Part shown: piece by piece, positions 4,303 through 45,718 of the stretch
Numbering within the stretch: the stretch's first letter is position 1
Layout of the letters: every line of letters starts with the position of its first letter
Source: Candidatus Bathyarchaeota archaeon
Lineage (GTDB): Archaea > Thermoproteota > Bathyarchaeia > 40CM-2-53-6
Direction: 5' to 3'
Assembly (NCBI GenBank): GCA_963833125.1
Contig: CAWHWX010000030.1
Span: 1-53,211 of the forward strand
Length of the DNA: 53,211 nucleotides
The notes under the pieces: generated by a model
What the model saw: the letters and a program-made list of their open reading frames with translations, nothing else
What the model was told of the DNA's origin: nothing
The model's database searches: none
Position numbers and translations under genes: made by a program

Positions 4303-4689
4303 CTACTCTTTGTCATCGGGGAGTAGTTGCCTTTCCAAGGAATCGAGTTTCTCAAACCTCTCTCCCCACTTTGAGACAAACTTCCGTTGCCTGATCCAGA
4401 CGCTCAGAGACCACAACACTGCTACTAGCGAGGCGAACAGAAGGAACCAATCTGCGTACTCGAAGTCAAAACCTTCCTCGTGATGAAAGGGCCGTAGGTT
4501 GAACGGAGGGGGGCCAAGGTTTACGAAGACAAAGATAAAGAACCGTGAAAGGAAAAGCAACAGTATAATCGAACCGATCAGGTTGACTTTGGCCTGAGTG
4601 CGAAAACGATTGAACTCAGTCGAAGCCTCCTGCAAGAACCGATGAAGGGTTGCTACAGGGTATTCATCTTCCTTGTCAGACACGGCCAT
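4303..4689 (-). CDS. Hypothetical membrane protein (2 TM)
   Basis: 128-aa ORF with two hydrophobic segments, co-oriented downstream of the wHTH gene. Confidence 0.75.
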   Translation of the reverse strand: MAVSDKEDEYPVATLHRFLQEASTEFNRFRTQAKVNLIGSIILLLFLSRFFIFVFVNLGPPPFNLRPFHHEEGFDFEYADWFLLFASLVAVLWSLSVWIRQRKFVSKWGERFEKLDSLERQLLPDDKE

Positions 4690-13392: not shown

Positions 13393-13814
13393 ATGGTACA
13401 CGTATCAGATGAAGGCATGTTCGATGCACCCTAGAGAAGATTTGGCGCTTTCTCAACGACGACAGCCCACAACCCACCAACACAGCTCGGTCAAATTTTC
13501 AAAAGTACTAGAACAAATGACAAGGGCATGACCTCAGAGGTTGAAGTGAAGAACCCTGACGGCTCATGGCGCAAGGAAATCTGGAAATTTGGGTTCAATC
13601 CCCCGAAGGGGTTTGACCTGGAAATTACCAGCGGACCAATGAAGGGCACAAAACACACCCACACATACACCCCGATGGGAAACAAGACTAAAGTGGTTGT
13701 TGAGGGTGAATTCGTAGCTCAAGGCATGGATGACGCATCACTCAAGAAAGCAGCTCTCGGGATGTTTGAACTAGTCTTTAACGAGGACAGCGCAATCTGA
13801 AGAACTACAAGTAA
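13393..13814 (+). CDS. SRPBCC/START-fold protein (several frameshifts)
   Basis: Reassembled MVHVSDEGMFDAP/LEKIWRFLND.../HQHSSVKFSKVLEQ/...GPMKGTKHTHTYTPMGNKTKV...FNEDSA/NLKNYK. The DAP.EKIW start is typical of SRPBCC. Confidence 0.6.
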
Positions 13815-13985
13815 TTTTCAACAACGCACGAACTGAATACATCTCTAACTTCCCTAGTCTTTTGTTTCTATTCACAGAAAGAATCTAGTTTCCTACGAAA
13901 GCACAAATGCGTCCATGATTAGGCAGTGTGGATGATCGACGGCTAGGTTTCCGGACATTTACTTTTCATGAGGTGAGAATAAGAA

Positions 13986-14360
13986 TTGAGTGACTCTGAG
14001 CAGAAGGCGGTGCAGCGTGAACTTGCCCGAAGGCGGGTGTTCGTCTTTCTTTCCATCTTCTTCGCTATTGCTCTTGCAGGCGACATTCCTGGGGAAGCAG
14101 ACATCTTCCTTCATGCACTAGACGAATATGCGATTGTTTCCCTCTCGGTCCTAGCACTAATCATAATCCTTGTTTGGAGAAACAACAAGACACTTTCACA
14201 GCTGAAAAAGCAGAACAACATCATTCTGGTCCTCTTCATAATTGCATTGGGATTCAAACTCTTCGCATTCATGGTTGAGAGCAACGATCCTATGGACTTC
14301 GGCGACGAAATCCCCTCCCTGATAGGACTCATACTAGCACTGCTGAACAGGTTCGTCTAG
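13986..14360 (+). CDS. Hypothetical membrane protein (about 4 TM)
   Basis: 124-aa hydrophobic ORF filling an intergenic space. Confidence 0.7.
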   Translation: MSDSEQKAVQRELARRRVFVFLSIFFAIALAGDIPGEADIFLHALDEYAIVSLSVLALIIILVWRNNKTLSQLKKQNNIILVLFIIALGFKLFAFMVESNDPMDFGDEIPSLIGLILALLNRFV

Positions 14361-14406
14361 GCTAGGGATGTGTCCTGAATCCCCAGCCTGCCTCTCCTCT
14401 TCCAAA

Positions 14407-15431
14407 CTACCAATTTCTTCCCGCCAGAAAATCTGTCGTTTGCCTGAGCGTCGGCATTCTTCTAGATTTGCTTCTGAGATAGAGGTAGGCACAAACATTT
14501 GCAAAGAGCAACCTATCTTGTGCTTGGAAACCGACAAGATGTCCGACTATGTCTCCTGCATCCCACACGTCTCCGGCCCCCGTAACGAAACCCGCAATCT
14601 TACCAATCGCCGAAACCCAAGTTTGTCCCTCCCCCGTCGAGGACACGCTACCAATTGGAGTATGCACGTCCAATTTGACTCTAAGAACATCCTGCAGTAA
14701 TCCAGAAACCCTGACCAAGTCTTTTCTATTGTAGTTCCGCGGTAACGTTCCAGTTGAAAGACGCCGAGCCATAATCCTAGTTTCGTTCTCATTCACGCTA
14801 ACGACGTCGACCAAACCTTTTCCGACAATATCCTTCACAAGCACTTTGAGGCGTCCTTCCGCCGCCGGTAAGGTCCGCAGGGTCAAGGAAGTTGAGTCTA
14901 CCCTTCCGACCCCTCAAGCCGAAAACTTTCCTTGCGAGTTCGTTTCCTTTTGTGTTGGATGACCAGTTCACGAGGGCTACACAGTCGGACCGCTCAAGAT
15001 CTACAACGTCCTTGTGTTCGAGTCTTCGCCCATCAAACTCCCTCAAATCACCGACATCGCTGATCATCACGTTCACTTGTTTGTTTCGGAAACCGAATTC
15101 GAGAGCGGTCGTATAGCCAGGTTGACCGGGAATGACTCGCACCTGGCAGTTGCGTGGAGGGTTTGCAAGCTGCGGTTTGCGTGTGTTCATCCCCGACACA
15201 GTAGAGTCTCGTCTTCACTGACAATAACGCTAAGGCATATGCCAAATTTGCAGCATTTCCTCCTGCGCGTTCAATCTGCGAAAAGCCCCGCAGGTTCCCG
15301 CCTCCGGATGCTGCTTTCAGTTGTACCTGCCTGAAGAGTTGTTTCAGAGATGGGACGGAGACTATCCTGTCGAGGTAAAAGTCCGGTAGGACCGATACTT
15401 TGAGTTTAGAGATTTCTCTATCGTACTCCAT
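14407..15431 (-). CDS. PfkB/ribokinase family carbohydrate kinase (two frameshifts)
   Basis: GGNAANLAYAL, FLDPADL, SVNENE and TGAGDVWDAG spread over three ORFs. Confidence 0.85.
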
Positions 15432-15442
15432 CCTAACCCGCT

Positions 15443-16632
15443 TCAACCTGATCCTGTCAGACCATCTTTGTTTTGTTTGATCCCGTAGACTAAGACTGCT
15501 CCTAGAAGCTGGGTTATGGCAGCCGCTGCGAAGATGTATACAGGTCCAAATATGCTCCAAACGAAACCAAGCAGCAGCGGACCGACTATCATTCCTAGAT
15601 CTTCAAAGGAACCATAAATCCCGATCGTGGCTCCCTGCATCGCTGCCGGAGTCACATCAGGGATCATAGCTAACAACAAGGATGACCCGGAAAATCCTAC
15701 ACCCACAGCGATCGAAACAACCAGAAGTAGGTAAGAAGTGTCGGCGAAAAGATACAAGAGGAATAAGGCAGAGCTTGCAAGGAGCCCAAGAACTGCTGTG
15801 CGTCTTATTCCGAATTTGTCCGAGAGCCATCCGACGACCGGCATTGCCACCAGTTGAGCCGCTGAAACTGACGCAAAAAGAACGCCCACATCAACGGTGG
15901 ACATCTTGATTTGCTGCGAGGCGTAGAGAGGCAGAAACGAAGAGGCTACTGTACGCCCCATGAAGATTAGAGCGGCCGACAGAAAGAGAAGTTTTGCTGA
16001 CCGCCTGCTGAGAACACGCTTCAGAGCCACAACCATGTTCCCCTTTTGCTCTTGGCGACGAGACCTTTCGCTTGGAAACGAGATCAGAACGAACACCGCC
16101 ATCAAGAGCGATATCACCGAGGTAGCCCAGAAAGAGTACTCAAACGCCCAGGTCTGAGCAATATAGCTGCCAAGCAAAGGCCCAATTACGCGCCGAGGAC
16201 TAAGAACAGCCACCAAAGGCTCGCATACAACCCAATCGACTTCTCAGGAGCGGCCTCGGTGACGTATGACCTTGTCAGTGGCCCAATAGCAACAAACAGC
16301 ACCCCCGTAAGAAATTGGAGGCCAATGAAAACGGGGACGAGCGACCGAAGAGTGTAGAGTGGAGATAGTACGCTCATTGCGAGTATTGACACGAGCATCA
16401 GTAGTCGCCGATCGGTTCTGTCGCTAAGGTTTCCCCAAATCCATTCGGAAAGAAACATCCCAGCCGCTTGCACTGCCACCAGTATACTCCAGCCAATTAC
16501 GGTGATTCCAAGAGAATCCACGTAGAGAGGCATTACCGGACCGCTGAACGAAACCGTTGACGCTATACTATAGAAGAGGAGAATCAAGTACGCAGAAGAG
16601 ACAACTCGAAGACGAGAATTCAAAGGAGCCAA
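15443..16632 (-). CDS. MFS transporter (frameshift about 16195)
   Basis: About 12 TM segments; GNLSDRTDRR and GWLSDKFGIR motif A. Confidence 0.9.
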
Positions 16633-19060: not shown

Positions 19061-21043
19061 GAGGAAGATCTTTCGGGATCTCCAAAGTTTGGAGAAAGCA
19101 ACTTCCAGCTTCTGGGCTGCATACCAGGCAACAATTCAGGCTGTCGAGAAAATTCCTCTTGAGAGGGCACTCGGCAGGGTACTTGCCGAAGATATTTTCT
19201 CCGGAATAGACGTGCCCGGTTTTGACCGGGCAGCCATGGACGGTTTCGCCGTTACGGCTGCAAGCACATTTGGCGCGGACGAGCAAAACCCCGTCAGTTG
19301 AAGGTAACAGCCGAAGTAGAGGCAGGGGATTCTGCCGGATATTCCGCCCTACCGGGTGAGGCGTTAGAGATAGCTACTGGTGCTCCGATGCCGAAAGGTA
19401 CTGACGCAGTTGTAATGGTAGAGTATACGAAGAGGAACGGATCTGAGGTTCTCGCTTACAGACCGGTTTCCCCTGGCGAAAACGTGACGGGGGCCGGGAG
19501 CGATATTATGACCGGGGAGCTCTTGCTTCGCAAATCGGAACGAATAACTCCCCGAGAAATAGGGCTAATTGCAGCGATCGGGCTGCCCCAAGTTTCAGTG
19601 TTTCGAAAACCACGCGTCGCTATATTCTCAAGCGGAAACGAACTCATTAAACCGGGCGAGTCGCTCCGGTTCGCGAAGATCTATGACATCAACGGTCCCG
19701 CAGTTTCAGCGGCCGTAGCTGAGTGTGGTGGTGAACCTGAATTTCTGGGGATTCTACCCGATAATTACTCTGCTGTTAAAGACAGCCTTGATTCAGCCCT
19801 GAGAGACGCTGACATAGTCATCTCTTCAGGGAGCACATCCTCAGGCCCAGGCGACCTATTCTACAGGGCCGTAGACGATCTTGGAGATCCAGGCGTGATC
19901 GTACACGGGTTGACGCTTAAACCTGGGAAACCGGCGTTGCTCGGTATAGTCAGGGGGAAACCGATTTTCGGATTGCCTGGCTACCCCACTTCCGCCCTAA
20001 TGATCTTCCACATGTTGGTTGCCCCGATAATTCGCAGGCTCGCCAATGCACCTGAGATCGCCCCAATCAAGGTCAGCGCCATCTCACCTATGAAATTCTT
20101 CAAGGCCCGCGGCCGCCGTGAGTTGCTCCCGGTGCAGCTGATAACACAACCGAGCGGTGAGTTGATCGCGTATCCGATGCAAAGCGGATCAGGGGCCGTA
20201 AGCTCATTCTCGATGGCGGATGGCTTTGCGGACCTTCCGGAAACTCAAGAGTTCGTTGACGAAGGAGAGAGATTGGAAATCCAACTGTTTGGGAGAGAGC
20301 TAACTCCTGCGTCGCTTGTCGTGATAGGTAGCCACTGCGTCGGGCTAGATATCGCTTTCAGTATGCTCAAGGAACGAGATCCAGATTTTCTTGGAAGAAC
20401 CATTAACGTTGGCTCCGTCGGCGGATTCCACGCCATTAAGCGGGGTGAGGCGGATATGGCTGGAGTTCACCTTCAAGACGAGGCGAGCGGAGAATACAAT
20501 CTGCCGTTCCTCTCGTCCTACGGCCTCAAAGAATCGGCAATTTTAGTGCGAGGTTACGACCGTGAACAAGGGTTAATCGTAAAGCAAGGCAATCCGAAGA
20601 AGCTACAGGAAGTTCGAGACCTGCTTCGAGAAGACGTTCGCTTCATAAACCGCAACAAAGGATCTGGTACGAGACTTCTTATCGACCGCCACTTGACTGC
20701 GCTCGCCTCTTCCACTGGGACTGACCTGGACAGCCTTTCGATGAAGATTCATGGATACGGCTATGAGGTAAAGTCGCATTCTGCCGTAGCTGCCGCGGTA
20801 AAAAACGACCGTGCAGACGTTGGCTTCGGTATCAGAACTGTTGCCGAGGTGCCCGGTCTGGATTTCATCAAGTTAGACGACGAAAAATATGACTTTCTAA
20901 TTGGAAAGGACCGTATGAGTAAGAAACAGGTGCAGGCTTTCGTTAAGTTATTGGGATCTAAGGAATTCTCTACAGCCCTTCAAACTCGCGCTCCAGGACT
21001 GAGTAGTAATCAGCAATCTGGGACAATATTATTTCAGCCATAA
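19050..21043 (+). CDS. moeA: MoeA fused to a C-terminal PBP (LysR substrate-binding-like) domain (frameshift about 19298)
   Basis: [16 protein letters not shown] and GLPGYP; C-terminal GSHC, GSVGG, REQGL and [10 protein letters not shown]. Confidence 0.92.
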
Positions 21044-40318: not shown

Positions 40319-41326
40319 ATGGCTTTGAAAGTGGGAGTCAGATTGCCGAATTCCGGCCCGCTGGCTCAGGCAGAATCGATCCTGCACAGTGCTGAGCTTG
40401 CCGAGAAACTCAACTATGACTCCGTGTGGGTTCACGACCACATAGTCTGGGGGACGGAACAACACAGGGGTCACCTGTCATCTGGCTCAGCTGAAGCGTT
40501 AGGCCCGTCGCAATTGCCAAACTTCTATGAATCGCTTACCACGTTATCCACAATCGCAGGAAGAACTGATCGAGTAAAGCTTGGAGTAGCAGTAGTCATT
40601 CTTCCACTACGCAATCCAGTGGTCTTCGCGAAACAAACGTCGGTCATAGACGTGCTCTCTGGCGGGAGACTAATCGTAGGGGTTGCACCCGGCGCGCCGA
40701 AAATTACTGAGAAAGAGTTCGAGACAGTCGGGGTTGACTACCATAAGCGTGGAAAAATCACAGACGATTACATTAGAGCTGTGAAGAAACTCTGGACTGA
40801 ACCGCTAGCGACGCACGATGGCAAATTCGTTTCATTCAGGGACGTACAAATGTTTCCGAAACCCTTCCAGAAACCACATCCACCCCTCCTGATTGCCGGA
40901 GGAGAACGAGGACTGAGCGAGATCGCGATAAAGCGAGTGGCGGAGCTCGGTAATGGATGGATCCCTGCATATCTGACCGAGAGCGAGCTGGAGCAAGGGA
41001 CAATACAACTTGAGCTAAGGATGAAGGAGGTTGGAAGGGGGGGTGAGGAGTTGATGGTTGGACTTGAAATGTTTACGGGCATCGGCCAGTCAGAAGACGC
41101 AGCCGAGAAAACCTACTCAGCCACGCTCATGAAGAACTTCGTTTCTGTGGAAGAAGGCATGAAGCGAAGCCTCGTAGGTTCGTCGAGCATTATTGCAAAA
41201 AGACTTGAGGCGTACGAGAGAGTTGGACTGGATTTTGTTGAATTGAAGTTCATGTACTCGACCATTCAACAGTTCCACGATCTGATGACAAAATTTGGAG
41301 AGGACATACTTCCGTCATTCAAATAA
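40319..41326 (+). CDS. LLM-class (luciferase-like) flavin/F420-dependent oxidoreductase
   Basis: AE...YDSVWVHDH, RNPV..AK....D.LSGGR, PKP.QKPHPP and GNGW.P. Confidence 0.9.
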   Translation: MALKVGVRLPNSGPLAQAESILHSAELAEKLNYDSVWVHDHIVWGTEQHRGHLSSGSAEALGPSQLPNFYESLTTLSTIAGRTDRVKLGVAVVILPLRNPVVFAKQTSVIDVLSGGRLIVGVAPGAPKITEKEFETVGVDYHKRGKITDDYIRAVKKLWTEPLATHDGKFVSFRDVQMFPKPFQKPHPPLLIAGGERGLSEIAIKRVAELGNGWIPAYLTESELEQGTIQLELRMKEVGRGGEELMVGLEMFTGIGQSEDAAEKTYSATLMKNFVSVEEGMKRSLVGSSSIIAKRLEAYERVGLDFVELKFMYSTIQQFHDLMTKFGEDILPSFK

Positions 41327-41489
41327 TGCAACTTGGCAAGAAACCGCCCCCCCCACACAGAGTCTTGAACCGACTTCGATTCTTTTAGCGGCCAAGAGTT
41401 CAAGAGATTGATGTCCTAATTCGATTTCGAGAATGTCGTAGGAGTTCGAATTACCCGTGGTAACAGACGGTAATAAAATAAGCAATTGA

Positions 41490-41540
41490 GGTAACGTCAA
41501 CTTGTCGTTTGGTTCGATGAGCTGTAACAAACCGTTTGGT
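41490..41540 (+). repeat. Left terminal inverted repeat with two CGTTTGGT sub-repeats
   Basis: GGTAACGTCAACTTGTCGTTTGGTTCGATGAGCTGTAACAAACCGTTTGGT. Confidence 0.8.
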
Positions 41541-41541
41541 G

Positions 41542-41865
41542 CTATGGGTCGCTTAGTCGCAAGTACTGCTTCTCTAGATCAGGCAGTACTTTCTCCGTCA
41601 AGTCGCGAATCATTATTGTAAGCTCCCCTATCGTTGTCGTTATTTCAATCGGGTTCGAGCCTTTTCCGTCCGTTATGGAGAGAGGTATTCCTGTCGGTAA
41701 GTTAGCCCTCCACATCGTGATAAGTTCGTTCTTCTCGTGAATTCGAGAATACAAGCCTTTCAGGGCATTTTGCAAGCTTTCATCATCAAGTTCACTTAAT
41801 GTAAAGCATCTTGGGAACTTTGGTTCCATCCTAACGGTGCGATAGTAAAACCTCATGGTGCACAA
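41542..41865 (-). CDS. Hypothetical cargo protein
   Basis: 107-aa ORF whose stop abuts the left TIR. Confidence 0.6.
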   Translation of the reverse strand: MCTMRFYYRTVRMEPKFPRCFTLSELDDESLQNALKGLYSRIHEKNELITMWRANLPTGIPLSITDGKGSNPIEITTTIGELTIMIRDLTEKVLPDLEKQYLRLSDP

Positions 41866-41985
41866 ATCAAAGCTACAGGAAACCTAGTTGAATGCGATAA
41901 CTGTAGAGCTTGGGCCAAAGTCAACCTCTAGCAGTATCTTTCTCTACGCAAGCACCTAAATTGGACAGAGCCAAGTTTAGACCTC

Positions 41986-42657
41986 ATGACTGCCCGCGAA
42001 AAACTGGATGAAGCTAAGTTCTTTCTTAGTAAGTTGCGTCAGTTTTCCGAATTTGACTCACAAGGTGAAATTCCGCAGGATGACTTCAAGTATTATAGTT
42101 CTGCTTGTGTTTGGGCTCTCTACGGTTCGTATGACCATTTGCTCTACGACTACGCGAGGAAGTTTTGGCCCAAGTTAGGTACGGACGATTTTCTCACCCG
42201 TGACAATTTGAAATTGGTCGCAAAAGCAACAGAAAACAAAGAAGGACAGGAATTTCTAAAGTGGTATGATAAAGTGCGGGGAAGGATTCAGGAAAACAAG
42301 GATGCAAACACGATAATCAAAGTGCGGAAAGTTGAAGCCCACCGCGCACAAACTCAATATTATTTCATCAATGATTTTACGGTAAGTCTGCACGACGCAG
42401 TTACGGCCTCAGGGGCAATTACAATGGGCGCTTACTCCGGCGAACCTTGGATGGCTAAACCAATCGAAATAGGACCAATACCGAATGTGCCCCCCGTAAT
42501 TCCCATTCCATCATCAATGACGACTGTAAAACGAATTGGACACTTCAGCGGCTATCCTGATAAGCCGGTTGATAAGGTGATAGAAGATACTCTAACTCTT
42601 CTTGACCAAATCGTATCTGAAGCAGAAACTAAGTTCGGCACGCCTCAAGCTAATTGA
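41986..42657 (+). CDS. Hypothetical cargo protein, possible HEPN-fold RNase
   Basis: Helical N-terminus KLDEAKFFL...FKYY.SA and an R-x4-H motif (RKVEAH). The stop abuts the right TIR. Confidence 0.65.
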   Translation: MTAREKLDEAKFFLSKLRQFSEFDSQGEIPQDDFKYYSSACVWALYGSYDHLLYDYARKFWPKLGTDDFLTRDNLKLVAKATENKEGQEFLKWYDKVRGRIQENKDANTIIKVRKVEAHRAQTQYYFINDFTVSLHDAVTASGAITMGAYSGEPWMAKPIEIGPIPNVPPVIPIPSSMTTVKRIGHFSGYPDKPVDKVIEDTLTLLDQIVSEAETKFGTPQAN

Positions 42658-42660
42658 TTT

Positions 42661-42711
42661 ACCAAACGAAATGTTACAGCCTTTCATACCAAACGAGGAC
42701 GTTACGTTACC
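42661..42711 (-). repeat. Right terminal inverted repeat with two CGTTTGGT sub-repeats
   Basis: Reverse complement reads GGTAACGTAACGTCCTCGTTTGGTATGAAAGGCTGTAACATTTCGTTTGGT. Confidence 0.8.
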
Positions 42712-42718
42712 CAATTGA

Positions 42719-42777
42719 GGGTAACGTTACCTTCACGGTGAAATCCGATTAGAATTCCAACTGTTACCTTTCGGTGA
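42719..42777 (+). repeat. End of a second, related element with two GTTACCTT..CGGTGA sub-repeats
   Basis: GGGTAACGTTACC start; GTTACCTTCACGGTGA at 42726-42741 and GTTACCTTTCGGTGA at 42763-42777. Confidence 0.65.
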
Positions 42778-42787
42778 TGGACTGGGC

Positions 42788-43588
42788 TTAGTTTCGGGTT
42801 CTGCGTCTAACTAACCCGTACCCGATTACTATGAAGATTGCGAGCACCGTCAAACCGAAGGGATACTCTGGGATTGGGGGGGTCGGTGCGGGGTTGATGG
42901 CCACGGCAGCCTCAGCCCAAGTAGATCCGCCGCTTAACGTCGCGGGAAAAGTGGACGGAGAAGAGACTGGGTCGGAATACTGTGCAGCAGAACGAGTGCC
43001 AATCGTGTTTGTGTTGGGTGAAAGAGTAAACCCACTTCCATGCGTAACAGTCCCCCCAGCATTTTGCCCTATGATTCCAAGGAGAAAAGCTCCAGCCTGG
43101 AAGGAGACGGAGCCTGCGTCAACCGAAGCACTACTACCGGCATCATGTCCTGAACCCGCTACAGTCGTCATTACGCCTGAAACTTCATAGGCGTACACAT
43201 TCGTCTCTAGTGGACTACCGCTTGGGTTTACGTTGACCGTGTCAGCTCCACTCGTCGTAAGAGTCGCGATGAAAATAGTGACACTCTCAGTACCGTCTTC
43301 TGAAAACGCAACTTGAGTGTATGATCCCCCTGGCCCTGAACCCAAAGTATCGTAGACACGGGTAGGAACAGTAGTGACGTCGTTCATGTAGACGCCCACT
43401 ACTACAACATTTCCGCTTGTAACAGACGAACCAAAAATCGCTCCCACCACAGAACAGGCGGGACTACAGCCACCGGTAGTCTGCTGAACTAGGGTTGCTG
43501 CGGCGTGAACAGGTAACGGACTCGCAACAAGTACAAGCATCATCGTAACCCCAACTAACGTTAACCCAAGCGCCTTATGTCCCATCAA
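42788..43588 (-). CDS. Secreted/surface protein with a PEF-CTERM-like (IPEYP) sorting tail
   Basis: Signal peptide, S/T/G-rich beta body, and PIPEYP-TM-RRR C-terminus. Confidence 0.82.
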   Translation of the reverse strand: MMGHKALGLTLVGVTMMLVLVASPLPVHAAATLVQQTTGGCSPACSVVGAIFGSSVTSGNVVVVGVYMNDVTTVPTRVYDTLGSGPGGSYTQVAFSEDGTESVTIFIATLTTSGADTVNVNPSGSPLETNVYAYEVSGVMTTVAGSGHDAGSSASVDAGSVSFQAGAFLLGIIGQNAGGTVTHGSGFTLSPNTNTIGTRSAAQYSDPVSSPSTFPATLSGGSTWAEAAVAINPAPTPPIPEYPFGLTVLAIFIVIGYGLVRRRTRN

Positions 43589-43691
43589 AATCGGCTCCTA
43601 GTGGACGGCGAGTAGGTTCTGACTATATTACCCTTGTTCTGAATCTCGATTCAAAATTTGACGGTACAACAGTGTCCCGCTGACGAAGACT

Positions 43692-43879
43692 CTAACTTGA
43701 GTTGGTTTTGATAACTCCAGCCACAACGTCACTTGCTCTGAATCAGAGTCAACCACTTATTCTCTCCATCAACTTTGATTCACGCAACTTCCGCAGGAGT
43801 CTTTCCTCCAAGGCCATGTGCGGACGGATATAGTTGTGGAAGATTTGCATTCCTGAAAGAATCGGTGTAACGGCTTTGC
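43692..43879 (-). pseudogene. 3' remnant of a DDE-type integrase/transposase
   Basis: TPILSGMQIFHNYIRPHMAL, then in shifted frames KTPAE and IKVDGENKWLTLIQ, the typical C-terminus of archaeal DDE integrase-core (IS6-like) transposases. Truncated at the aor stop codon. Confidence 0.8.
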
Positions 43880-45718
43880 TTAGAGGAGGTTGAGGTAGCT
43901 GAGTTTTTCTTTGGTTGGGACTCCTTGCTCGTCCCATCCTCTCATTTCGTAGTATGGCCCCAGCATTTTACCGACGTCGCATGTTTGTCCTTTTGAGGTT
44001 CCTTCCGGCATCGGTTCTAGGAACCGGTCCGGAATCGTGTCATCCTTTCTCGTGTAACCTTCCCTGAGGTTGAACAATCTCTCAAGGTTCACGATCCGCT
44101 CACCCACCTTAACCATCTCCGCGTAGGTCTGCTTCATGCCCGTAGCATCACGGATACACCGCTCAATAACTGGGGGGCTGAATCCGAAGTCTAAGCAGAA
44201 ATCGCAGAATACAGCAGAATCAATGGGCGCCGCAGTTGAATCCTGGAAATCTATGACCCATTTCACCTTGCTTAGATCCTCCGAGAAACGATCAACTTTC
44301 TCCGGCATCCCGAAGAGTTCCACGGCTATGGTCCAGCCGTCGTTGTGATCGGCGCCGCGAGATGCAGTTGCATAGTTCAATCCAATTCCCTTCGCGCCCC
44401 TCGGGTCGTAGCCTGGCATCTCAAGCCCCTTAACGTGCATCGCGAACTTCCAAGCGTCGCTACCCAATTTCTCTGCGGCAACCTTGACCCCGTCGGCGAG
44501 TGTATTTCCTATTCCCTCCCTTCGCGCGATTTTCTCAACGAGCCATAAGAGAGCTTCATCGTTTCCAAAGTTCAACTTCATACCCTCAGTTTGTTGATCA
44601 GTTATGATGCCCCGCTCGTAACATTCCATGGCGAAGCCCGTGACCACTCCGGTTGAAATGGTGTCCATCCCATACTGGTCACAAAGAAGGTTGGCATGCG
44701 CTATAGTTTCGAAAGAAGGTATGCCGCAGTTTGCTCCTAGCGCGAATATGTTCTCATGTTCCGGCCTGTCGGTTCTGACGCCGGCGTGTGGGCCATCTTT
44801 AATGTCGATCCATTTTGAGCATAGGACTCTGCATCCCCAGCAGTGAACAAAGCCTCGGTTCGGGTAGTGTGCCTTGATGTAAGTGGCGTCTATCTTGTCT
44901 ACTAAATCGAAATATCCGCTCTGGAAGTTTCGGGTGGGCATGAGGCCCATCTCGTTGACGAATGAGACCGACCCAGTAGTCCCATCCTCTCTAAACGCCT
45001 TCACAACCTCATTGTTATCCACGATCTTTCCTATCCAAAGCAATGTCTCCCGCCAATGATCTCTGTCCAGGAATGTCTCCGCCTTTCCGGTGCCTTGAAC
45101 TGCGAAAGCTTTCAGGTTCTTTGACCCCATTACAGCTCCCGGCCCGCATCTGGCTGCAGCCGCGTGTTTGTCGCTCATTATTGCGGCGATTTTGACCAGG
45201 TGCTCGCCTGCAGGGCCGATTGAAGCTACGCGAATCGTGGGTTTCGAACCCAGCTCAGTCATGACTGCTGCTTCAGTCTCATGAGTGGTCTTGCCCCAGA
45301 GGTGGGACGCGTCCTTGATCTCCACTTGACCGTCGTGGAGGTACGCATAGACTTTCTTCTCCGACTTCCCCTGAATTATTACTCCATCATAACCCGCAAA
45401 TTTGATGTTCGGCCCAAGGTGCCCACCACAGAAACCAACCGAGATCGTCCCCGTCGAAGGAGATTTCATTCCAACAGTATATTTTCCAGTCAGTGGGACA
45501 TTAGTGCCCGCGAGAGGGCCAGTCATGAAGATTAACCGGTTATCAGGTCCAAGTGGGTCTGCATGTGGCGGGAGTTCGTCGTACAGAATTTTTGCGATGA
45601 AACCTCTGCCGCCCATCCACGTCTCGGCGAAATCATTGTCAATTACCTTCTCTGACGTCTCCCCGGTGGTGAGGTCGACGCGAAGAAGCTTGCCCACGTA
45701 GCCCTTGTAATCAGTCAA
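43880..45718 (-). CDS. aor: Aldehyde:ferredoxin oxidoreductase (tungstopterin AOR family)
   Basis: LRVDL, GGRG, KSP.TG, IGPAGE, GAVMGSKNLKA, CWGCRVLC, GMDTIS, YDPR and RGADH. Confidence 0.95.
   Translation of the reverse strand: MTDYKGYVGKLLRVDLTTGETSEKVIDNDFAETWMGGRGFIAKILYDELPPHADPLGPDNRLIFMTGPLAGTNVPLTGKYTVGMKSPSTGTISVGFCGGHLGPNIKFAGYDGVIIQGKSEKKVYAYLHDGQVEIKDASHLWGKTTHETEAAVMTELGSKPTIRVASIGPAGEHLVKIAAIMSDKHAAAARCGPGAVMGSKNLKAFAVQGTGKAETFLDRDHWRETLLWIGKIVDNNEVVKAFREDGTTGSVSFVNEMGLMPTRNFQSGYFDLVDKIDATYIKAHYPNRGFVHCWGCRVLCSKWIDIKDGPHAGVRTDRPEHENIFALGANCGIPSFETIAHANLLCDQYGMDTISTGVVTGFAMECYERGIITDQQTEGMKLNFGNDEALLWLVEKIARREGIGNTLADGVKVAAEKLGSDAWKFAMHVKGLEMPGYDPRGAKGIGLNYATASRGADHNDGWTIAVELFGMPEKVDRFSEDLSKVKWVIDFQDSTAAPIDSAVFCDFCLDFGFSPPVIERCIRDATGMKQTYAEMVKVGERIVNLERLFNLREGYTRKDDTIPDRFLEPMPEGTSKGQTCDVGKMLGPYYEMRGWDEQGVPTKEKLSYLNLL

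What the first reader, a model, noticed from the sequence alone, without database searches (positions are those of the whole stretch)
42701..43879. Back-to-back stacking of related elements at one target: a possible site-selective DDE cassette array
Directly after the right CAATTGA a second end begins (GGGTAACGTTACC). It has the same terminus and two-sub-repeat layout but a different sub-repeat sequence (CGGTGA instead of CGTTTGGT). It is followed by a cargo gene and the 3' remnant of a DDE transposase pointing toward it. The junction GTTACGTTACCC-AATTGA-GGGTAACGTTAC is a 30-bp near-palindrome with a 6-bp spacer, so a dif/tyrosine-recombinase-like reading is also possible. Inference: an archaeal element family that repeatedly inserts at CAATTGA next to existing ends and builds integron-like cargo arrays. 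I do not know of a description of this.
Basis: partly seen in the sequence, partly recalled or inferred. Interest (0 to 1): 0.85.

Follow-up and report, generated by a model that had tools for sequence, protein, structure and literature searches.

The report
Archaeal transposons stacked beside a promoter
Two distant relatives of the IS6 jumping-gene family sit end to end here, apparently because this archaeal family keeps landing in the same eight bases just upstream of a TATA-like box and so builds arrays of cargo-carrying elements.

Summary
Window 41490-42711 is a 1.2-kb element without a transposase (E1). It has 51-bp two-module inverted ends and is flanked by CAATTGA(G) on both sides. Eight bases after its right end, a second related end begins (42720). 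That end is followed by a cargo gene and a broken 3' remnant of a DDE transposase (E2).

The transposase belongs to a very large archaeal family distantly related to IS6. It matches Pfam PF13610 but falls below NCBI's IS6 cut-off. Elements make 8-bp target duplications, have bipartite ends and always carry passenger ORFs.

CAATTGA is not a recognition sequence; target 8-mers are unrelated. Stacking is real and family-wide. In 80 loci chosen only by transposase similarity, 19 of 26 back-to-back end pairs are exactly 8 bp apart. All spacers within an array are identical, but they differ between species.

An unexpected finding: the 8-bp target lies about 5 nt from a TATATAAA-like box. This holds at 62-68% of 34 sites against 12% in controls, and replicated at 9 of 13 new sites. 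Arrays are therefore best explained by repeated use of one promoter-proximal position. Attraction by resident ends is not excluded. The dif/tyrosine-recombinase reading is rejected.

The parts
41450..41482 (.). Flank outside the array. It holds the palindrome-like ATTACC-CGT-GGTAAC (41450-41464), the TATA-like TAATAAA (41471-41477), and then 5 nt, ATAAG (41478-41482). It has the same layout and spacing as the hsp20 promoter flank of other arrays.
   Evidence: The flank is conserved in the orthologous loci L051 and L055. No ORF of 50 aa or more starts downstream of it, so promoter activity here is not shown.
41483..41490 (.). Left copy of the target-site duplication, CAATTGAG. The last G is shared with E1's terminus, so the duplication is either 8 bp with E1's tip one G short, or 7 bp.
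41490..42711 (.). E1, a non-autonomous passenger-carrying element (no transposase) of the CGTTTGGT sub-repeat class. The inverted ends are 41490-41540 and 42661-42711.
   Evidence: Its ends match those of an autonomous element of the same class (L030/L058).
41542..41865 (-). E1 ORF, 107 aa, no family match.
41986..42657 (+). E1 ORF, 223 aa, from an archaeal family of hypothetical proteins. A 41%-identical paralogue is cargo of another one-ended element at G000 C12:40049-40633.
42712..42719 (.). Right copy of the duplication, CAATTGAG. This is the 8-bp spacer between E1's right end and E2's end.
42720..42777 (+). E2's surviving end, which is the end downstream of the transposase gene. It is of the CGGTGA sub-repeat class. 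A close relative of this end is at G000 C16:409836 (-).
42788..43588 (-). E2 cargo: a 266-aa secreted protein with a C-terminal PEYP...hydrophobic...RRR tail. It belongs to a multi-copy family that often sits next to this kind of end.
   Evidence: No Pfam or NCBIfam match.
43729..43868 (-). 3' remnant of the E2 transposase gene, covering roughly the last 50-70 residues. It has one frameshift and one in-frame stop, lacks all catalytic residues, and is cut off about 12 bp from the stop codon of the aldehyde ferredoxin oxidoreductase gene (43880).

Best explanation
The region is the junction of two members of an archaeal transposon family distantly related to IS6.

E2 arrived first. It later lost the 5' part of its transposase gene and its other end. 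What remains is an immobile remnant: one end, a passenger gene and the transposase 3' stub.

E1 inserted later. It is a transposase-less relative that must be mobilised in trans. It went into the 8 bp (CAATTGAG) between E2's end and a TATA-like box, and duplicated those 8 bp.

The exact abutment arises because the family makes 8-bp staggered insertions at a fixed position, with the target starting about 5 nt from a TATATAAA-like box. That places it at the upstream edge of an archaeal BRE/TATA promoter, which fires away from the insert. Each insertion regenerates the same 8 bp next to the box, so the next element lands there again. An array grows with identical spacers. On this model the newest element lies next to the box.

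Shown here:
- the family assignment;
- the 8-bp duplications;
- identical spacers within arrays;
- independent re-use of the site in sister species;
- the positional association with a TATA-like box.

Inferred:
- that the box is a working promoter (convincing only for hsp20);
- that the transposase reads it, either directly or through bound TBP/TFB;
- copy-in replicative chemistry.
For: Family:
- Pfam PF13610 scores 41.1 bits against a cut-off of 27 on the only near-full copy in the genome, which lies inside an element with GGTAACG ends.
- 5416 protein clusters match at E<=1e-10, and all 120 listed carry PF13610.

Architecture of E2:
- G000 C4:221329-223117 repeats the order of parts seen in E2.

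Duplications:
- 37 elements with perfect 8-bp flanks were found in 80 loci chosen only by transposase similarity. The 8-bp match was imposed in that search.
- As an independent check, miniature copies located by their ends alone were examined. 7 of 14 have identical 8-mers, 5 differ at 1 base and 2 differ at 2 bases.

Stacking:
- 19 of 26 back-to-back terminus pairs with 0-40 nt between them are exactly 8 bp apart, in 16 of the 80 loci.
- 20 of 39 are exactly 8 bp apart in this genome plus the array loci.
- 4 of 13 replication elements abut a neighbour.

Independent re-use of this site:
- The LLM-AOR locus carries CAATTGAG x2 here, CAACTGAG x2 in G019 and CATCTGAG in G016. The occupants differ.
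- At the hsp20 site, the 8-mer differs between genomes but is the same at all junctions within a genome.

TATA rule:
- The better flank has at least 7 of 8 A+T in the window ending 4-6 nt from the target at 62-68% of 34 sites, against 12% at 20000 random positions. The signal returns to background by 12 nt. The consensus is ATATAAA at -12 to -6.
- With a strict motif, 14 of 37 sites match against 1.5% of controls.
- Replication in 13 new elements gave 9 of 13 against 12%, p=2.7e-6.
- By my reading of the printed flanks, 13 of 15 visible array edges carry such a box.
- The window's flank scores 7 of 8 (GTAATAAA) at the same distance.
Against: - Miniature copies in this genome show no such box (0 of 14), and none abuts another end. 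Target choice therefore cannot be a simple property of the transposase.
- About a third of sites lack the box.
- Promoter activity is untested. Outward ORFs start 25-200 nt away at 28 of 33 box-bearing flanks against 30 of 45 other flanks, p=0.11.
- The window's own box is weak (TAATAAA), and no ORF follows it.
- With many promoters per genome, generic TATA targeting alone would rarely hit one promoter repeatedly. Either some promoters are far hotter than others, or resident ends add attraction.
- Every array has both a box and resident ends, so the two causes cannot be separated with these data.
Confidence: 0.6

Rival explanations
1. End-directed targeting. Transposase bound to a resident end captures the incoming element and directs strand transfer into the 8 bp abutting that end, much as IS30 and IS911 insert next to inverted repeats (recalled, not read here). 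On this view arrays grow because ends attract ends, not because of the flank.
For: - The spacing is exactly 8 bp at 19 of 26 pairs.
- Neighbours are found at 16 of 80 loci and at 4 of 13 replication elements. That is more than generic promoter targeting would be expected to give.
- Elements of different sub-repeat classes share the terminal 7 nt.
- One-ended remnants persist as partners at the same site in several species.
Against: - Solitary insertions with no resident end already obey the TATA-distance rule.
- 13 of 15 visible array edges have the box (my reading).
- 0 of 14 miniature copies abut an end.
- No array was found that must have grown on the side away from the box.
Confidence: 0.25
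2. Selection only. Insertion is essentially random, and large elements survive only where they do no harm, just upstream of a core promoter or beside an existing element.
For: - Miniature copies show unrelated targets with no box.
- Genomes of this kind are gene-dense.
Against: - The box sits at a fixed distance within about 1 nt, and the signal is back to background by 12 nt.
- Spacers are exactly 8 bp, with no spread to 5-11 bp.
- The very same 8 bp were hit independently in three species.
Confidence: 0.08
3. The near-palindrome is a dif-like or other tyrosine-recombinase site, and the units are cassettes moved by site-specific recombination.
For: It is a 30-bp near-palindrome with a central spacer.
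Against: - There are several such junctions in this genome and 42 distinct ones across all sequence examined, with different spacers.
- Each unit has inverted ends and an 8-bp direct duplication.
- The 12 PF00589 matches in the genome are on other contigs or far from junctions. None is on this contig. One sub-threshold match (20 bits) lies about 0.7 kb from an element end on C12.
- Phage_integrase is not among the 25 of 28 families listed for 127 cargo ORFs.
- The 8 integrase cores of this genome give no tblastn hit in 1.13 Mb of element-bearing loci.
Confidence: 0.02
4. Assembly artefact: repeats were mis-joined in a metagenome-assembled genome.
For: The genome is a 39-contig bin with 7% estimated contamination.
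Against: - The same structure occurs in many independent assemblies, including contigs of 0.5-3 Mb.
- One public contig bridges the left flank into E1, covering 41352-41549 with 0 differences.
Confidence: 0.02

Closest known systems
IS6/IS26 family (IS26, IS257, archaeal ISPfu1-type members)
   Same: - A DDE transposase matching the IS240-type domain PF13610.
- 8-bp target duplication.
- Termini that start with GG and have G at position 7. Outside this genus they read GGTTCTGT, like IS257-type ends (passages of PMC7986276 and PMC6807381).
- Signs of replicative intramolecular events: an exact 2644-bp inverted duplicate bracketing other elements.
   Different: - It scores below NCBI's IS6 cut-off, 93.9 against 125 bits.
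- The transposase is about 375-390 aa, with an extra N-terminal SWIM-like and zinc-ribbon region.
- The ends are 51-58 bp with two binding-site-like modules, not 15-20 bp.
- Elements are 2.0-5.7 kb and carry passenger ORFs, not about 0.8 kb.
- There is a positional target preference.
- The reviews' passages that I read describe archaeal members as 700-750 bp and name only one passenger-carrying member.
Passenger-carrying IS (tIS such as ISDsp3) and mobile insertion cassettes
   Same: - E1 has ends of IS type, a target duplication and passenger ORFs, but no transposase.
- The autonomous relatives carry passengers beside the transposase gene.
   Different: Here, passengers are the rule for the whole family: all 45 elements examined have at least one extra ORF of 90 aa or more. 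The term 'mobile insertion cassette' is recalled, not read here.
Promoter-tethered integration of eukaryotic retrotransposons (Ty3 at Pol III starts via TFIIIB; Tf1 at Pol II promoters). Recalled, not read here.
   Same: Insertion occurs at a fixed short distance from a TATA/TBP-type promoter element, leaving the promoter intact.
   Different: This is a DDE cut/copy DNA transposon in archaea. No tether has been shown. It is a functional analogy only.
Tandem arrays formed by re-using one integration site (casposons and tyrosine-recombinase elements in Thaumarchaeota; passages of PMC6563490)
   Same: Several elements lie in a row at one site, each flanked by the same repeat.
   Different: Those arrays use Cas1 or tyrosine recombinases and a sequence-defined site. 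Here a DDE enzyme is involved and the 8-mer is arbitrary. The Discussion passage of that paper that I read says composite transposons with passenger genes and mobile integrons had not been detected in archaea.
Integrons
   Same: An array of cargo units builds up at one place next to a promoter.
   Different: There is no integrase and no attC/attI. Each unit is a transposon with inverted ends.

Membership tests
IS6/IS26 family | DDE transposase matching the IS240/IS6-type catalytic domain (Pfam PF13610 above its gathering score) | tested here: met
   - 41.1 bits (cut-off 27) for G000 C4:219071-220033, and 30 bits for the C4 remnant.
- PF13610 is on all 120 listed homologues.
- The window's own 62-aa remnant ORF gives no Pfam hit. 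It is tied to the family by tblastn and blastn.
IS6/IS26 family | Reaches NCBIfam's IS6 equivalog model NF033587 | tested here: not met
   93.9 bits against a cut-off of 125. NCBI names the homologues only 'DDE-type integrase/transposase/recombinase'.
IS6/IS26 family | 8-bp target-site duplication | tested here: met
   - 37 elements, with the 8-bp match imposed in the search.
- in miniature copies found by their ends alone, 7 of 14 are identical, 5 have 1 mismatch and 2 have 2 mismatches.
- 13 further elements.
IS6/IS26 family | Short (15-20 bp) terminal inverted repeats starting with GG | tested here: inconclusive
   GG and G7 are present (GGTTCTG generally, GGTAACG in this genus). However, the functional-looking end is 51-58 bp with two repeated modules.
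IS6/IS26 family | About 0.8 kb, with a transposase gene only | tested here: not met
   Elements with a transposase gene are 1983-5722 bp; transposase-less ones such as E1 are about 1.2-1.3 kb. All 45 examined have at least one extra ORF of 90 aa or more.
IS6/IS26 family | Replicative cointegrate-forming transposition | not testable with these tools
   Only indirect signs are available:
- exact inverted duplicate copies bracketing two other elements in L022;
- spacers in inverted orientation in L021 and L023.
Non-autonomous passenger element (mobile insertion cassette type): E1 | Ends of an autonomous IS class, a target duplication and no transposase gene | tested here: met
   E1's ends match the CGTTTGGT-class autonomous element, and there is no transposase similarity inside 41541-42660.
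Chromosomal dif / Xer site | A single conserved site per chromosome, acted on by a tyrosine recombinase | tested here: not met
   There are many junctions with differing spacers and no associated recombinase.
Integron | IntI integrase with attI and attC-bounded cassettes | tested here: not met
PEF-CTERM/PGF-CTERM-type sorting-signal proteins (E2 cargo) | Match to a curated C-terminal sorting-domain model | tested here: not met
   One search gave no NCBIfam match at E<=0.01. The resemblance (PEYP motif, hydrophobic stretch, RRR) is by eye and recalled.

The most novel reading that the evidence does not exclude
This archaeal family integrates at a fixed position defined by the transcription pre-initiation complex. 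The 8-bp target starts at the upstream edge of BRE/TATA, read either through TBP/TFB-bent DNA or through a direct contact with the transposase's extra N-terminal zinc domains. That would make it a prokaryotic counterpart of Ty3-type promoter-tethered integration. A few hot promoters (hsp20 in this genus) would then act as heritable landing pads that accumulate and exchange cargo-carrying transposons, an integron-like gene platform without an integrase.
Probability: 0.3. Interest if true: 0.85.

Novelty: new variant of a known kind. Interest (0 to 1): 0.65.

Why it matters
- Position-specific integration next to a TATA box is, as far as I know, not described for a prokaryotic insertion sequence. 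My searches of the paper library and the passages I read of two IS6 reviews and a thaumarchaeal mobilome survey turned up no description of it.
- If the positional rule reflects a mechanism, it gives a testable link between archaeal transcription initiation and transposition.
- It would also explain how gene-dense archaeal genomes tolerate 2-6-kb transposons.
- The family is very large (5416 clusters) and spans Bathyarchaeia, Nitrososphaerales, Methanoperedens and others. It carries diverse, mostly unannotated passenger genes. It is missed by NCBI's IS6 model, so it is likely under-annotated.
- The passage of the thaumarchaeal survey that I read states that transposons with passenger genes had not been detected in archaea.

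Tried and rejected
- My first guess was that the transposase remnant's own end was a GGTTCTG at 43616, which would make the 42720 end unrelated. I dropped this. There are no sub-repeat modules there, and the C4 paralogue shows end, cargo and remnant as one unit.
- The CAATTGRGGTAAC search found only the one site.
A strict two-module filter then missed degenerate ends.
- I compared the left flank of the C4 array with other arrays by blastn and found no similarity of 120 bp or more. C4 is therefore not the orthologue of the hsp20 locus. It shares only about 50 bp of promoter-like flank.
- The sub-repeat class comparison across junctions suffered from register shifts. I give no count from it.
- PADLOC gave no hit for the three cargo proteins. 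Rfam gave only one sub-threshold match, and there are no tRNA genes in 38-47 kb.
- The Atlas search only placed the 223-aa ORF among archaeal hypothetical proteins.
- Public runs: one run held 21% of the sampled words. Laying three runs gave three short contigs, no joints and no sign of an empty allele. This says nothing either way about polymorphism.
- The ORF-downstream test of promoter status was not significant.
- Complex prediction of the transposase with TBP and TFB of a sister genome gave no verdict. This is not evidence either way.
- I could not see supplements of the papers. The IS tables of PMC6563490 may list members of this family.
Full report
**What is in the window.** Between the stop codons of a luciferase-like oxidoreductase gene (40319-41326, +) and an aldehyde ferredoxin oxidoreductase gene (43880-45718, -) lie two mobile elements.

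E1 spans 41490-42711.
- Its ends are 51-bp inverted repeats with the layout GGTAACGT-N8-CGTTTGGT-N8-CTGTAAC-N4-CGTTTGGT.
- It holds two ORFs without family matches and no transposase.
- CAATTGA flanks it on both sides. With the following G the repeat is 8 bp, and E1's left tip is then one G short.
- The sister-genome orthologue reads CAACTGAG|GGTAACG, which favours the 8-bp reading.

E2 begins at 42720, eight bases after E1.
- Its end has the same layout but uses CGGTGA as the sub-repeat.
- Next comes a 266-aa secreted protein gene whose stop codon lies about 10 bp inside the end.
- Last is a 140-bp transposase 3' remnant with one frameshift and one in-frame stop.

**E2 is one unit.** G000 C4:221329-223117 repeats the same order of parts: end, tail-bearing secreted protein, transposase 3' remnant. 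Paralogues of both cargo proteins sit next to such ends elsewhere.

**The family.**
- The only near-full transposase gene in this genome is C4:219071-220033 plus 218875-219213, and its reading frame is broken. It lies inside a 3067-bp element with GGTAACG ends and TTACGTAA on both sides.
- It matches PF13610 at 41.1 bits against a cut-off of 27. It matches NCBI's IS6 model only at 93.9 bits against a cut-off of 125.
- The other tblastn hits in the genome, at about 20 places, are almost all C-terminal pieces.
- Homologues occur in 18 of 22 other genomes of the genus. Those extracted as full ORFs are mostly 373-393 aa.
- The family has 5416 clusters at E<=1e-10.
- It occurs in records titled Bathyarchaeia, Nitrososphaerales, Methanoperedens, Methanotrichaceae and others.
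- It was found in 23 of 251 sampled genomes of the class at E<=1e-80.

**Ends and duplications.**
- In 80 loci chosen only by transposase similarity, I searched for inverted termini with a perfect 8-bp direct repeat and found 37 elements of 1983-5083 bp.
- Outside this genus the terminus is mostly GGTTCTGT, which is IS6-like. Each end has two modules of the form TGTnAA-N4-CGnnnGnn, and the 8-mer varies between elements.
- The duplicated 8-mers share no sequence.
- As a check that did not impose the repeat, I examined 14 miniature (184-225 bp) copies in this genome. Of these, 7 have identical 8-mers, 5 have one mismatch and 2 have two. Two of the 14 (on C26 and C38) share the same flanks and are probably one locus.
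- All 45 elements examined carry at least one extra ORF of 90 aa or more. Pfam names few of the 127 ORFs: a DNA methylase, a glyoxalase, a peptidase and aspartyl proteases.

**Stacking is real.**
- In the 80 loci, back-to-back termini separated by 0-40 nt are exactly 8 bp apart in 19 of 26 cases. Every other spacing occurs once. The cases include Methanoperedens and Nitrososphaerota records.
- In this genome plus the arrays I fetched because transposase hits clustered there, 20 of 39 are at 8 bp.
- Within an array every spacer is the same 8-mer: TTACGTAA four times in L022, and TTCTTACA or its complement three times in L021.

**The same site is re-used independently.**
- The LLM-AOR locus is occupied in G019 and in G016. 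G019 has spacer CAACTGAG, an autonomous element and a different remnant. G016 has spacer CATCTGAG and yet another pair.
- In G011 and G022 the two genes are about 100 bp apart with no element between them.
- A second site lies upstream of an hsp20-type gene. An element end abuts the same position in 14 of the 18 genus loci fetched. Two more show degenerate ends, and my pattern did not parse the remaining two.
- There the 8-mer differs between genomes (TTACGTAA, TTACGCCA, TTACATGA, TTACTAAA, TTACTACT, TTACGACA, TTACGTCA) but is uniform within each genome. The duplications therefore post-date the point mutations.

**An unexpected rule.**
- The flank outside arrays, and one flank of most solitary elements, carries a TATATAAA-like box ending about 5 nt from the 8-bp target.
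- For this test I dropped three of the 37 elements: L057, L076:1155-5028 and L129:4583-7948. They were a duplicate site or had flanks made of other elements.
- In the remaining 34, the better flank has at least 7 of 8 A+T in the window ending 4-6 nt from the target at 62-68% of sites. The figure is 12% at 20000 random positions of the same loci. The excess is gone by 12 nt.
- A strict motif gives 14 of 37 against 1.5%. Either end of the element can face the box (8 against 6).
- For replication I fetched 28 new loci from the class-level search, which gave 16 candidates. I dropped three: one duplicate of a discovery locus and two false boundaries. Of the remaining 13, 9 fit at 5 nt against 12% in controls, p=2.7e-6.
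- Read in the direction away from the insert, the order is target, 5 nt, TTTATATA. That is the order expected for BRE and TATA of a promoter firing away from the insert.
- For hsp20 the start codon follows 51 nt after the box, preceded by GAGGTGA (my count).
- The window's flank has TAATAAA at the same distance, after a palindrome like that of the hsp20 promoter. No ORF follows it.

**Interpretation.** Repeated insertion at one promoter-proximal position, each time regenerating the 8 bp, accounts for three things: exact abutment, identical spacers, and decayed remnants lying farthest from the box in the genus arrays.

I cannot exclude that resident ends add attraction. Arrays are frequent (16 of 80 loci), and every array has both a box and ends.

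Against any simple transposase-encoded rule, the miniature copies show no box (0 of 14) and never abut an end.

**Other mechanistic hints.**
- In L022 two copies of one element are exact inverted duplicates (2644 bp, 0 differences) bracketing two other elements.
- Some arrays hold spacers in inverted orientation.
- Both observations are what replicative intramolecular transposition of the IS6 type would leave.

**Rejected readings.**
- dif/Xer or integron: there are many junctions with different spacers.
- None of the 12 PF00589 matches in the genome is on this contig, and none above the cut-off lies near a junction.
- No integrase similarity was found in 1.13 Mb of element-bearing loci.
- No tRNA genes or Rfam families are present in the region.

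**Literature.** I read passages only.
- Two IS6 reviews (PMC7986276, PMC6807381) describe short ends, elements of about 0.8 kb, small archaeal members and one passenger-carrying member.
- A thaumarchaeal mobilome survey (PMC6563490) reports tandem arrays only for casposons and recombinase-dependent elements.
- Searches listed nothing on TATA-proximal or end-abutting insertion of archaeal IS.

Noticed in passing
G000 C16:135784-135860; G000 C4:218205-218253; window 41450-41482; L024 about 4400-4479: A palindrome, GTTACC-N3-RGTAAC, sits just downstream of the TATA box of the hsp20-type promoter, like an operator. There are 5 exact copies in this genome, each followed by a TATA-like stretch. Looser versions flank one-ended elements at C12:39327, C19:230035 and the window. 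Its half-site equals the GGTAAC terminus that the elements use in this genus. The meaning is unknown.
   Followed up: partly
G000 whole genome: The genome holds one near-full transposase gene, which is frame-broken. Nearly all the other tblastn hits, at about 20 places, are C-terminal pieces. Several retain the adjacent end and a cargo gene. Why the 3' part and its end are what survive is not explained.
   Followed up: partly
G000, e.g. C12:129237-129422, C18:132321-132506, C19:51473-51658: A family of 184-188-bp miniature inverted-repeat elements with GGTAACGTCAACTTGT / GGTAACGTCAAGTTAA ends has 14 complete copies. They have 8-bp duplications but no TATA-like box and no neighbouring ends.
   Followed up: yes
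L022:5794-8437 and 13458-16101: Two copies of one 2644-bp element are exact reverse complements of each other and bracket two other elements in the hsp20 array. This looks like a replicative inversion.
   Followed up: partly
G000 C16:408560-408575: An element end lies 8 bp from the interior of a truncated transposase gene, which begins around the conserved GA.NFHEAY region. This is what an adjacent deletion caused by a neighbouring element would leave.
   Followed up: no
G000 C32:9-29 kb, C28:108-111 kb, C12:104-105 kb and elsewhere: Dozens of genes share the about 30-residue C-terminal tail of the E2 cargo protein (PEYP, a hydrophobic stretch, RRR), and several are clustered. No curated sorting-signal model matched.
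   Followed up: no
G000 C16:1240-12959: Six tyrosine-recombinase matches lie within 12 kb at the start of contig C16. They are unrelated to the junctions.
   Followed up: no
L021 and L023 arrays: Non-palindromic spacers occur in both orientations within one array: TGTAAGAA and TTCTTACA in L021, TTACGACA and TGTCGTAA in L023. Simple insertion cannot produce this, so later inversions must have taken place.
   Followed up: partly
window 43616-43650: GGTTCTG, the terminus typical of the family outside this genus, occurs between the cargo gene and the transposase remnant. It has no sub-repeat modules, so I judged it a chance match.
   Followed up: partly
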